Shown here in pieces: positions 6,304-44,542 of a stretch of DNA of 64,000 nt. Within the stretch, counting starts at the first letter, position 1. Each line of letters begins with the position of its first letter. The stretch lies in the NCBI RefSeq assembly GCF_053078305.1, contig NZ_CP166879.1; one strand, written 5' to 3'. A program made the position numbers and the translations under genes. The notes under the pieces are model-generated. The model saw nothing but the letters and a program-made list of their open reading frames with translations. It was not told the DNA's origin and did no database searches.

Positions 6304-7902
6304 TTAACGTAACGGCATAATGGGCGTGATATGTCCATTATGCCGGGCGGGCGGCGGTTGGCTGCCCGCCAGCCATTTGGGAAAATCACGTAGCGGCATC
6401 GGCTGTGCGTACAAATACCCTTGCAAAATATGCACGCCATGACGGCGCAAATACTTCGCTTGTTCTTGCGTTTCCACGCCCTCCGCCACCAGTTCAATAT
6501 TCAGTCTTTGCCCCAGCGCGATGATGATATCGGTCACCGTCGAGTTAACCGCGTCAGAACCTATAGCTGCGGTAAATGACTTATCAATTTTCAGCACGTC
6601 AGGACGTAATGTTTCAAGCCAGGAAAATGAACTGTTGCCGGTGCCGAAGTCATCAATCGCCAGTTTGACATTTTTACGATGCAGCTCGCGGGCAATCCGA
6701 TAATCAACATCCAGTAAGGCATCGCGTTCGGTGATTTCGAGGATCAGTTGCTGAATCGGGTGAGCGCTAAACCAGTACTGATTGAGATCTTTTATCAGCA
6801 CACCACGGCGAAAATGGCTGGGTGCGACGTTAATGCCAACATGAAACTGACTACTCATTGGGAAAACATGGCGCTGACGAATGGTTTCTGCCATCACATA
6901 GCGGGTCAGTGGCACAATTAAATGATGTTCTTCCGCGATAGGAATAAACACATCCGGTGAAATCCAGCCCTGACGCGGATTGTTCCAGCGCAGCAAAATC
7001 TCTACACCAATACATTGCTGGCTGCGCGCATTAAGCAAAGGCTGACAGAACAATTCGAACTCATGTTGCGCCAGGCCCAGATTGATTTCGCGGGAAAAGC
7101 TCATCCGGTAAGCGGTCGCCAGCCAGGCGATGTAGCCCACCAGTAAACTTAGCAGCACCGCCAGCGGTAATTGTGTTGGAAGATAGTGCCATGCCAGCGC
7201 CGTAGCCCCCGGACCATTAACGTTAATGGTAAAAGGAAAGCGTTGCGAAGAAACCTGATAGTTTTCATTGTCTTCAGGTTGCGGAAGGGAATCTACCAGC
7301 CCATTACCATAGAGCAAATGCCGTTTGTCCACCGTCAGGCTGGCGCTACTGATTTGCGGCAGTTGTGGCTCAAGGAGCATTGCCGTCAGTAAGTCGATGT
7401 TAATCATCTCCATGACCCCAGCATTGCTACTGCCCGCTGCAGGCGTCCATTGAATCAAAACCGGACTGCCTTTAATCAGGGCACGGTCGATCGTCAGGCG
7501 TAAAAGTGGTTGCGGTGCAGGAAGTTCAGCCAGAATGTCCACGACGGGCACATTGCGATAACCAAAAATGCTGGAGCAATAGAGTGTGCCGTCTTGCACC
7601 AGGCCAATGGATCGCACAGTTTGGAGTTTTGCCGCCTGTTTACGTAATGGCAAATGGGCGACAGAGCAGGGCAGACCAATCAGCGGAAGCAAGACTTCGC
7701 TACCTGCCTGTAGGGGAAGCAGTACTTTATCTAATTCCTCTACAGCATGATTGGCGAATTGTACTACCCGTTGTTGATTTAAGTTACGCTGTGAAATAAA
7801 TCGCACGCTCAGGGTCGAAGCGAGCGTAACGAGTGCGCAAATCGTACAAACAATCATTCGATTACGGCGATAGGTTTTAATGATCCGTTGTGCTTTTTGC
7901 AT
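6304..7902 (-). CDS. pdeD: c-di-GMP phosphodiesterase PdeD (CSS-motif sensor + EAL domain)
   Basis: 532 aa from ATG 7900-7902; EAL signature in GVEILLRW; track ORF is 10 codons longer. Confidence 0.88.
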   Translation of the reverse strand: MQKAQRIIKTYRRNRMIVCTICALVTLASTLSVRFISQRNLNQQRVVQFANHAVEELDKVLLPLQAGSEVLLPLIGLPCSVAHLPLRKQAAKLQTVRSIGLVQDGTLYCSSIFGYRNVPVVDILAELPAPQPLLRLTIDRALIKGSPVLIQWTPAAGSSNAGVMEMINIDLLTAMLLEPQLPQISSASLTVDKRHLLYGNGLVDSLPQPEDNENYQVSSQRFPFTINVNGPGATALAWHYLPTQLPLAVLLSLLVGYIAWLATAYRMSFSREINLGLAQHEFELFCQPLLNARSQQCIGVEILLRWNNPRQGWISPDVFIPIAEEHHLIVPLTRYVMAETIRQRHVFPMSSQFHVGINVAPSHFRRGVLIKDLNQYWFSAHPIQQLILEITERDALLDVDYRIARELHRKNVKLAIDDFGTGNSSFSWLETLRPDVLKIDKSFTAAIGSDAVNSTVTDIIIALGQRLNIELVAEGVETQEQAKYLRRHGVHILQGYLYAQPMPLRDFPKWLAGSQPPPARHNGHITPIMPLR

Positions 7903-27152: not shown

Positions 27153-27299
27153 TTATCACTGATCGTTGATGGCGCAATTTCTGCGCCATCGCAAAAAAAT
27201 CCTCCGTGATGCTCGTCACAAATCTTGCCCTCCCGATGTTGTGCTATGCTTTTTATCAGCGACTAACCCGCTAATGCAAAACAGATAAGTGAGGAAACA

Positions 27300-43799: not shown

Positions 43800-43994
43800 C
43801 TATTTGTTAGTGAATAAAAGGTTGCCTGTAAAATTACAAAAACCTTACGCAGCGTCAAGCGGAATCGTGTCAATCATTGCGACAAATCAATCCTGTGCCT
43901 AAGCATTACGCGACTGACTCGCCTCACTCTTCCTTTGGGCTTGAGACCACATGGGGTCGGCGCCCCGAATTTTAAAGGGCAATTACGATAAAAA

Positions 43995-44009
43995 TGTGAT
44001 TTTCATCAC
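43995..44009. promoter_or_regulatory. Near-consensus CRP-type palindrome in the gapA-msrB divergent region
   Basis: TGTGA-TTTTCA-TCACG against consensus TGTGA-N6-TCACA. Confidence 0.45.
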
Positions 44010-44128
44010 GATTTAGGTGCAGCCATTTCGTCGAGATCAAGTTTAGGACAAAATTTTGCCAGTTGGTGTTAATGTTTTGTTAGAATCAGTCACGTAATGT
44101 GAGCACGATTAAAGTGAGATGTGAGCAA

Positions 44129-44542
44129 ATGGCTAATAAACCTTCGGCAGAAGAACTGAAAAAAAATTTGTCCGAGATGCAGTTTTACGTGACGCAGAAT
44201 CATGGGACAGAGCCGCCATTTACGGGTCGTTTACTCCATAACAAGCGTGACGGCGTATATCACTGTTTGATCTGCGATGCCCCGCTGTTTCATTCCCAAA
44301 CCAAGTATGATTCCGGCTGTGGCTGGCCCAGTTTCTACGAACCGGTGAGTGAAGAATCCATTCGTTATATCAAAGACTTGTCACATGGAATGCAGCGCAT
44401 AGAAATTCGTTGCGGTAACTGTGATGCCCATCTGGGGCATGTCTTCCCTGACGGGCCGCAGCCAACGGGCGAACGTTATTGTGTTAACTCTGCTTCTTTA
44501 CGCTTCACTGATGGTGAAAACGGCGAAGAAATCAACGGTTGA
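44129..44542 (+). CDS. msrB: Peptide methionine sulfoxide reductase MsrB
   Basis: 137 aa from ATG 44129; two CxxC zinc pairs ([21 protein letters not shown]). Confidence 0.95.

What the first reader, a model, noticed from the sequence alone, without database searches (positions are those of the whole stretch)
43995..44009. Near-perfect CRP-type palindrome between divergent gapA and msrB
TGTGATTTTCATCACG differs from the CRP consensus half-sites at one position. It lies about 125 bp upstream of msrB and about 215 bp upstream of gapA, so it could serve either gene.
Basis: seen in the sequence. Interest (0 to 1): 0.3.

Follow-up and report, generated by a model that had tools for sequence, protein, structure and literature searches.

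The report
Known CRP site of gapA P3
The palindrome is real and is the already catalogued binding site through which the sugar-sensing regulator cAMP-CRP switches on one of the four promoters of the E. coli glycolysis gene gapA; whether it also controls the neighbouring repair gene msrB is still untested.

Summary
The window is E. coli chromosome. The stated distances of about 215 and 125 bp are correct.

It is more than chance. A CRP matrix built from 51 other known sites ranks it first in the window (15.4 bits; 0.06 expected per shuffled window). In 77 distinct Enterobacteriaceae intergenic regions the GTGA/TCAC half-sites are nearly invariant while the central spacer is close to random.

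The site is already known. RegulonDB lists this exact sequence as a CRP activator site at -41.5 of gapA. Genomic SELEX recovered it, and PhyloScan ranked it among the top genome-wide predictions. The published gapA P3 promoter string (TSS 174 nt upstream of the ATG, Crp-regulated) maps to TSS 43961, so the site centre is at -41.5, a class II position, with a conserved TAAAAT -10.

The same dimer would sit at -91.5 of the mapped msrB start (44094). That matches the geometry of the shared glpT/glpA sites. CRP control of msrB has only been predicted, and I found no test of it.

Verdict: observation confirmed, interpretation supported, novelty nil, interest low.

The parts
43995..44010 (.). CRP core 16-mer TGTGATTTTCATCACG (CGTGATGAAAATCACA on the gapA strand); centre 44002.5
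   Evidence: PWM 15.45 bits, rank 1 in window. Identical to the RegulonDB and SELEX-chip entries in PMC3105977 supplements.
43992..44013 (.). Full 22-bp CRP site AAATGTGATTTTCATCACGATT with A/T-rich flanks
   Evidence: Flanking A/T positions are conserved in 65-76 of 77 orthologous regions. Half-site bases G/T/G/A and T/C/A/C are conserved in 74-77 of 77. Central spacer positions are close to random.
43969..43974 (-). -10 hexamer TAAAAT of gapA P3 (positions -13 to -8)
   Evidence: Sequence. Conserved in 74-77 of 77 regions. Its first base is 28.5 bp from the CRP centre in all 71 regions where both motifs were matched by the regex. It overlaps the -35-like CCTTTAAAA of sigma-32 promoter P2, so its conservation is not attributable to P3 alone.
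43961..43961 (-). Transcription start of gapA P3 (174 nt upstream of the ATG); CRP centre at -41.5
   Evidence: The published P3 string from Olvera 2009 Table 1 (PMC2759082) maps exactly to 43999..43961. This agrees with the RegulonDB position of -41.5.
43940..43940 (-). Transcription start of gapA P2 (-153 from ATG); CRP centre at -62.5; -10 CCCCATGT at 43956..43949
   Evidence: The published P2 string maps to 43978..43940. Assignment of P2 to the sigma-32 holoenzyme is from my memory of Charpentier & Branlant 1994, which I could not read; the promoter motif is consistent with the sigma-32 consensus.
44032..44032 (-). Transcription start of gapA P4 (-245 from ATG); the CRP site lies downstream of it at +29.5
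   Evidence: The published P4 string maps to 44070..44032.
43823..43823 (-). Transcription start of the main promoter gapA P1 (-36 from ATG); CRP centre at -179.5, too far for direct activation
   Evidence: The published P1 string maps to 43861..43823. Olvera 2009 states that P1 is not Crp-regulated.
44078..44086 (+). Extended -10 TGtTAGAAT of the msrB promoter
   Evidence: Sequence. Close to 100% conserved in 77 regions. The hexamer's first base is 78.5 bp from the CRP centre in 67 of 71 regions and 79.5 bp in 4. That this is the msrB promoter is my inference from the published start site.
44094..44094 (+). msrB transcription start (G, 35-nt 5' UTR); CRP centre at -91.5
   Evidence: Bos et al. 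2013 (PMC3650055) report that the first transcribed nucleotide is G1, that C is at +11, and that the 5'UTR is 35 nt. Window base 44094 is G, 35 nt before the ATG.
42792..43787 (-). gapA coding sequence
44129..44542 (+). msrB coding sequence

Best explanation
The palindrome is the binding site for one cAMP-CRP dimer that activates gapA promoter P3 by the class II mechanism. The site is centred at -41.5 and takes the place of a -35 element. It sits 28.5 bp upstream of a TAAAAT -10 hexamer, so bound CRP would contact RNA polymerase directly. P3 transcripts start at 43961, 174 nt before the gapA ATG. This adds a cAMP-dependent (catabolite-repressed) component to gapA transcription, which on glucose comes almost entirely from the CRP-independent promoter P1.

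Shown here: the sequence match, its rank in the window, its phylogenetic footprint, and its exact register with the published P3 start and -10. Taken from the literature: that CRP binds this spacer in vitro (genomic SELEX) and that P3 is Crp-regulated. Inferred: the class II contact mechanism, from the -41.5 position alone.
For: (1) PWM score of 15.45 bits, rank 1 in 64 kb, 0.06 expected per shuffled window.
(2) In 77 distinct gapA-msrB spacers from Escherichia, Citrobacter, Salmonella, Klebsiella, Raoultella, Enterobacter, Kosakonia, Kluyvera, Leclercia, Franconibacter, Siccibacter and others, G43996, G43998, T44006, C44007 and C44009 are 77/77. T43997, A43999 and A44008 are 74-76/77. The central spacer is close to random (for example T30/A17/G16/C14). 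Position 44010 is A in 53/77, which gives a perfect TCACA.
(3) Per-position conservation tracks the information content of known CRP sites (Pearson 0.95, Spearman 0.90). All 77 orthologous sites score at least 11.3 bits (median 16.1), and each is the best 16-mer of its spacer.
(4) The RegulonDB entry 'gapA activator -41.5' has the identical sequence, and the SELEX-chip entry lists the msrB<>gapA spacer (PMC3105977 supplements).
(5) The published P3 string maps so that the TSS is 43961 and the CRP centre is -41.5. 'gapAP3 is regulated by Crp' is stated in PMC2759082.
(6) Kim et al. 2018 (PMC5888115) treat gapA as CRP-activated at a class II position and Cra-repressed. Their CRP information came from a public database rather than new binding data.
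(7) PhyloScan ranked gapA/yeaA among the top genome-wide CRP predictions that use cross-species evidence (PMC1794230).
Against: Nothing contradicts it. There are caveats. I could not read the primary paper (Charpentier & Branlant 1994; not held), so the experimental basis for CRP dependence of P3 is second-hand. The -10 of P3 overlaps the -35-like element of P2, so its conservation is not specific to P3. Olvera 2009 detected only P1 transcripts on glucose. Kim 2018 report that Cra overrides CRP on acetate. The quantitative contribution of this site to GapA levels may therefore be small.
Confidence: 0.93

Rival explanations
1. Additional function, not exclusive of the best explanation. The same CRP dimer also activates the divergent msrB promoter as a class I activator from -91.5. 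This would tie methionine-sulfoxide repair to carbon status, in the way the shared CRP sites of glpTQ/glpABC serve both directions.
For: The msrB TSS is at 44094 (PMC3650055), which puts the site centre at -91.5. That is within 1 bp of the canonical class I position -92.5. It equals catalogued activator positions in the RegulonDB table (glpTQ -91.5, ansB -91.5, glpABC -90.5, manX/nupG/cdd -92.5). The two starts are 133 bp apart, against 132 bp for glpT/glpA. The distance from the CRP centre to the msrB -10 is 78.5 bp in 67 of 71 species even though the sequence between them is poorly conserved. Shimada 2011 lists the gene opposite gapA as a predicted CRP target.
Against: My searches found no report of crp- or cAMP-dependent msrB expression. 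Activation from about -92 alone is typically weak, and in the catalogued examples I saw in the table (glp, cdd, nupG, manX) a second, proximal CRP site is present. msrB has none: the best nearby 16-mer, at 44098, scores 9.7 bits, lies at +11.5 and is not conserved. The msrB promoter has a fully conserved extended -10 and may not need an activator. The constant spacing is equally explained by gapA P4, whose promoter elements occupy the interval, and by the general scarcity of indels in this spacer. The msrB regulators reported in the papers I read are RyhB, FNR and ArcA.
Confidence: 0.25
2. A chance palindrome with no regulatory function.
For: The 10-base core with at most 1 mismatch occurs about twice per shuffled window.
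Against: Rank 1 by PWM with 0.06 expected. The footprint across 77 species has conserved half-sites and a free spacer. The site was recovered by genomic SELEX with purified CRP.
Confidence: 0.02
3. The site is used by FNR or another CRP/FNR-family regulator rather than by CRP.
For: GTGATTTTCATCAC matches the FNR consensus TTGAT-N4-ATCAA at 8 of 10 positions. An FNR ChIP-seq peak has been reported in this spacer and assigned to msrB (PMC3688515).
Against: The two mismatches are exactly the bases that distinguish CRP sites (GTGA/TCAC) from FNR sites (TTGA/TCAA), and both are invariant in 77/77 species. The FNR peak coordinate, 1,860,717 in the older MG1655 numbering, converts to about window 43865. 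That is 137 bp from the CRP site and 18 bp from another FNR-like motif at 43877-43890.
Confidence: 0.03
4. The inverted repeat acts as an RNA hairpin in the long gapA P4 transcript (+22 to +37) rather than as a protein site.
For: A 5-bp stem folds at -5.2 kcal/mol on the gapA strand, z = -2.0.
Against: The stem is short and weak. The plus-strand fold is no better than shuffles (z = -0.3). There is no Rfam match. The stem positions are invariant rather than covarying, and their conservation profile matches the CRP matrix.
Confidence: 0.02

Closest known systems
The catalogued CRP site of E. coli gapA (RegulonDB entry 'gapA, activator, -41.5'; promoter gapA P3 of Charpentier & Branlant 1994)
   Same: It is the same object. 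The 42-nt RegulonDB string is identical to the window's minus strand at 44023..43982. The published P3 promoter string is also identical, which gives the same -41.5 position.
   Different: Nothing differs. The only addition here is a footprint across 77 species and the positions of the site relative to P1, P2, P4 and the msrB start.
Shared CRP sites of the divergent glpTQ / glpABC promoters
   Same: One CRP site is read as about -41 in one direction and about -91 in the other: glpTQ -41.5 / glpABC -90.5 and glpABC -40.5 / glpTQ -91.5. The values here are -41.5 for gapA P3 and -91.5 for msrB.
   Different: The glp spacer holds two such sites, so each promoter has both a proximal and a distal CRP. 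The gapA-msrB spacer has one. CRP dependence is established for both glp operons but not for msrB.
Class II CRP-dependent promoters such as galP1, mglB and ychH (site at -41.5)
   Same: A site centred at -41.5 replaces the -35 element, with a recognisable -10 at the expected distance (one search lists galETKM, mglBAC, ychH and ykgR at -41.5).
   Different: gapA P3 is a minor promoter in a four-promoter array dominated by the CRP-independent P1. Per Kim 2018, it is overridden by Cra bound downstream.

Membership tests
cAMP-CRP binding site | Two-fold symmetric 22-bp site with core TGTGA-N6-TCACA | tested here: met
   9 of 10 core positions match. PWM score is 15.45 bits, rank 1 in the window and above 88% of 51 known sites.
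cAMP-CRP binding site | Purifying selection with the CRP information profile (half-sites conserved, spacer free) | tested here: met
   In 77 orthologous spacers, core information content averages 1.78 bits and the spacer 0.37 bits. Correlation with the known-site profile is r = 0.95.
cAMP-CRP binding site | cAMP-dependent binding of purified CRP | not testable with these tools
   Literature only. The site is listed among genomic SELEX-clos and SELEX-chip targets in PMC3105977.
Class II CRP-dependent promoter (gapA P3) | Site centred near -41.5 of a mapped transcription start, with a -10 element in register | tested here: met
   The published P3 string maps to TSS 43961, giving a centre at -41.5. 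TAAAAT lies at -13..-8. The spacing is invariant in 71/71 species.
Class II CRP-dependent promoter (gapA P3) | Transcription from that start depends on crp/cAMP | not testable with these tools
   Stated second-hand in PMC2759082 and PMC6143558. The primary paper is not held.
Class I CRP-dependent promoter (msrB) | Site on the activating face of the helix near -61.5, -71.5, -82.5 or -92.5 | tested here: inconclusive
   The centre is at -91.5 from TSS 44094. This is 1 bp from -92.5 and equal to catalogued sites at -91.5. Geometry alone does not show activation.
Class I CRP-dependent promoter (msrB) | msrB transcription depends on crp/cAMP | not testable with these tools
   No report found in four literature searches. 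It exists only as a prediction in PMC3105977.
FNR binding site | TTGAT-N4-ATCAA, with T (not G) at the first half-site position | tested here: not met
   8 of 10 positions match, but the discriminating bases are the CRP-type G and C, invariant in 77/77. The FNR ChIP peak lies about 137 bp away.

The most novel reading that the evidence does not exclude
One CRP dimer at 44002.5 may coordinate the whole spacer. It would act as a class II activator of gapA P3 (-41.5), a class I activator of gapA P2, which I recall as the heat-shock sigma-32 promoter (-62.5), a downstream obstacle to gapA P4 (+29.5), and a class I activator of divergent msrB (-91.5). Glycolytic capacity and methionine-sulfoxide repair would then be co-tuned by cAMP. 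Only the P3 role is documented. The other three follow from positions computed here and are untested.
Probability: 0.2. Interest if true: 0.3.

Novelty: already known. Interest (0 to 1): 0.08.

Why it matters
It matters little as a discovery. The site, its regulator, its target promoter and even its cross-species conservation are already in RegulonDB and the literature. It is useful as a positive control, because a reader working from raw sequence correctly picked the strongest CRP site in 64 kb. The one open point is whether msrB shares the site. If so, it would add one oxidative-repair gene to a regulon of several hundred members and give another example of a bidirectional CRP site.

Tried and rejected
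- Simple consensus promoter scan of 43700-44250. It found none of the five experimentally mapped promoters and only one hit inside gapA, so it was not used.
- Primary gapA promoter papers (PMC205121, PMC1134079, PMC107748). None is held, so promoter coordinates were taken from Table 1 of PMC2759082 and checked by exact string mapping.
- RNA-element reading. There is no Rfam match, and the hairpin is weak and does not covary. Rejected.
- FNR reading. Rejected on the discriminating bases and on the ChIP peak position.
- CyaR (a CRP-dependent sRNA) as an indirect link to msrB. The paper that mentions both only cites the RyhB work, so there is no link.
- Spacing conservation as a way to decide between gapA and msrB as target. 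Both spacings are conserved, so the test does not discriminate.
- More distant genomes where gapA and msrB are not neighbours. I did not pursue these. The single genome-collection scan returned only the 80 closest MsrB relatives (at least 80% identity, all syntenic), and a further large protein search did not seem justified for a known site.
- MG1655 RefSeq record. It carries no regulatory features for this spacer.

Full report
**What is there.** The window is E. coli chromosome. The 551 bases around the finding occur once in 5425 of 5426 complete E. coli genomes, under the annotations msrB and gapA, and correspond to MG1655 1862016-1863766 in reverse orientation. The quoted 16-mer TGTGATTTTCATCACG is at 43995-44010. 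The centre of symmetry is 44002.5.

**Is it more than chance?**
- The bare core is not rare. TGTGA-N6-TCACA with at most one mismatch occurs 4 times in the window against 1.95 expected, and 11 of 100 shuffles reach 4.
- I built a symmetric log-odds matrix from 51 other CRP sites, taken from the RegulonDB table reproduced as Table S4 of Shimada et al. 2011. The gapA entry was left out, and duplicates and entries visibly out of register were dropped.
- With this matrix the site scores 15.45 bits. It is the best of all 16-mers in the 64 kb window and better than 88% of the training sites. Dinucleotide-preserving shuffles of the window give 0.06 such sites on average.

**Phylogenetic footprint.**
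- One scan of species-representative genomes with MsrB returned 80 loci. MsrB identity was 80-100%; the genera include Escherichia, Citrobacter, Salmonella, Klebsiella, Raoultella, Enterobacter, Kosakonia, Kluyvera, Phytobacter, Leclercia, Lelliottia, Pluralibacter, Franconibacter and Siccibacter.
- In 77 of them gapA lies divergently upstream, with a spacer of 334-352 bp. With the window this gives 77 distinct sequences, which I aligned.
- At the site, G43996, G43998, T44006, C44007 and C44009 are identical in 77/77. T43997, A43999 and A44008 are identical in 74-76/77.
- The central spacer positions are close to random, for example T30/A17/G16/C14 at 44001.
- The one position where E. coli departs from consensus (G44010) is A in 53 of 77, giving a perfect TCACA.
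- Per-position information content among orthologues correlates with that of known CRP sites (Pearson 0.95, Spearman 0.90).
- Every orthologous site scores at least 11.3 bits (median 16.1), and each is the top 16-mer of its own spacer.
- Within E. coli, the 30-mer covering the site is exact in 5371 of 5426 genomes.

**What it is.** It is a known site.
- The RegulonDB list in Shimada 2011 Table S4 has the entry 'gapA, activator, -41.5, gctgcacctaAATCGTGATGAAAATCACATTTttatcgtaat'. This is exactly the minus strand of window 43982-44023.
- The same paper's SELEX-chip table lists CGTGATGAAAATCACA in the msrB<>gapA spacer. gapA is among the 92 known targets that genomic SELEX with purified cAMP-CRP recovered.
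- Olvera et al. 2009 (PMC2759082, Table 1) give four gapA promoters at -36 (P1), -153 (P2), -174 (P3, regulator Crp) and -245 (P4) from the ATG. They state that P3 is regulated by Crp, citing Charpentier & Branlant 1994.
- All four published promoter strings map exactly in the window, with starts at 43823, 43940, 43961 and 44032.
- The CRP centre is therefore at -41.5 of P3. This is the class II position, where the site replaces a -35 element.
- On that strand a TAAAAT hexamer lies at 43974..43969 (-13 to -8). It is conserved in 74-77 of 77 species and sits at a constant 28.5 bp from the site centre in 71 of 71 species where both motifs were matched.
- Kim et al. 2018 describe gapA as activated by CRP at a class II position and repressed by Cra bound downstream, with Cra dominant on acetate.
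- PhyloScan (2007) already ranked gapA/yeaA among the top genome-wide CRP predictions using cross-species evidence.

**How it most likely works.** When cAMP is high, one CRP dimer binds 43992-44013 and recruits RNA polymerase to P3. This produces a gapA mRNA with a 174-nt leader, in addition to the P1 transcripts that dominate on glucose. Olvera 2009 saw only P1 under those conditions. The binding and the CRP dependence come from the literature. The class II contact mechanism is inferred from position. I could not read the primary paper.

**Other promoters in range.** The same centre is at -62.5 of P2 and +29.5 of P4. I recall P2 as the sigma-32 promoter; its CCCCATGT -10 is at 43956..43949. 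Neither relationship has, to my knowledge, been tested.

**The msrB side.**
- Bos et al. 2013 report a G start and a 35-nt leader for msrB. That places the start at 44094, which is a G.
- The start lies downstream of a fully conserved extended -10, TGtTAGAAT, at 44078-44086.
- The CRP centre is then at -91.5. This position is catalogued for class I activation (glpTQ and ansB -91.5; glpABC -90.5; manX, nupG and cdd -92.5).
- The -41.5/-91.5 pairing mirrors the shared glpT/glpA sites.
- Shimada 2011 lists the gene opposite gapA as a predicted target.
- Against this, I found no report of crp- or cAMP-dependent msrB expression.
- msrB lacks a proximal CRP site, and its promoter looks self-sufficient.
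- The conserved CRP-to-msrB spacing (78.5 bp in 67 of 71) is equally explained by the gapA P4 elements lying in between.
- I put direct CRP control of msrB at about one in four.

**Rivals rejected.**
- Chance: ruled out by the PWM rank, the footprint and the SELEX data.
- FNR: the site matches the FNR consensus at 8 of 10 positions. The two mismatches are the CRP-discriminating bases, and they are invariant in 77/77. The reported FNR ChIP peak (1,860,717 in the older numbering) converts to about 43865. The conversion uses the offset implied by Shimada's coordinate for the CRP site and by MG1655 v3. That point is 137 bp from the CRP site and next to a different FNR-like motif at 43877-43890.
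- RNA hairpin: the stem is weak (-5.2 kcal/mol), does not covary, and has no Rfam match.

**Verdict.** The feature is already known, so interest is low. The residual open question is whether msrB, and possibly gapA P2 and P4, are also governed by this one dimer.

Noticed in passing
window 43788-43890: The gapA 5'UTR and P1 promoter region, up to about -67 of the P1 start, is essentially 100% identical across 77 distinct Enterobacteriaceae spacers from many genera. Only 4 columns fall below 100%. This is more conserved than the CRP site itself.
   Followed up: partly
window 43877-43890 (minus strand TTGATTTGTCGCAA): An FNR-like motif (8 of 10 to TTGAT-N4-ATCAA) is centred at -60.5 of the gapA P1 start, inside the invariant block. 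The FNR ChIP-seq peak of Myers 2013 (1,860,717, assigned there to msrB as FNR-repressed with 'TSS not in peak region') converts to about 43865, 18 bp away. FNR may therefore act on gapA P1 rather than, or as well as, on msrB.
   Followed up: partly
window 43940 and 44032 (minus strand): The CRP site centre falls at -62.5 of gapA P2, which I recall as the sigma-32 promoter. That is a class I position two helical turns from P3. It also falls at +29.5 of gapA P4, a possible roadblock position. I found no mention of either relationship in the papers I could read.
   Followed up: no
window 40082-40097 and 27205-27220: Two other CRP-like 16-mers are TGTGACCAAACTCAAA (13.4 bits) and CGTGATGCTCGTCACA (13.0 bits). 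They are the sequences listed in Shimada 2011's SELEX-chip table for mipA<>yeaG and yeaQ/yoaG. Three of the four best CRP matches in this window are thus SELEX-listed CRP sites.
   Followed up: partly
window 7790-7805: TGTGAAATAAATCGCA is the second-best CRP match in the window (14.5 bits). It lies inside the 5' part of the pdeD (yoaD) reading frame, roughly 100 nt downstream of the likely start codon. I did not see it in the part of the SELEX list I read.
   Followed up: no
window 43963-43966: In the G+C-rich stretch between the P3 -10 and the P2 CCCCAT -10, several adjacent columns flip between C and G among species (for example C62/G12, C62/G13, C56/G16, G43/C27). I did not analyse whether this reflects paired changes or just spacer drift.
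   Followed up: no
locus L001 (CALMKU010000237.1, 1307 bp): A contig labelled 'uncultured Tolumonas sp.' MAG carries an msrB-gapA spacer and MsrB 100% identical to E. coli. It is most likely an E. coli contig mis-binned into that MAG.
   Followed up: no
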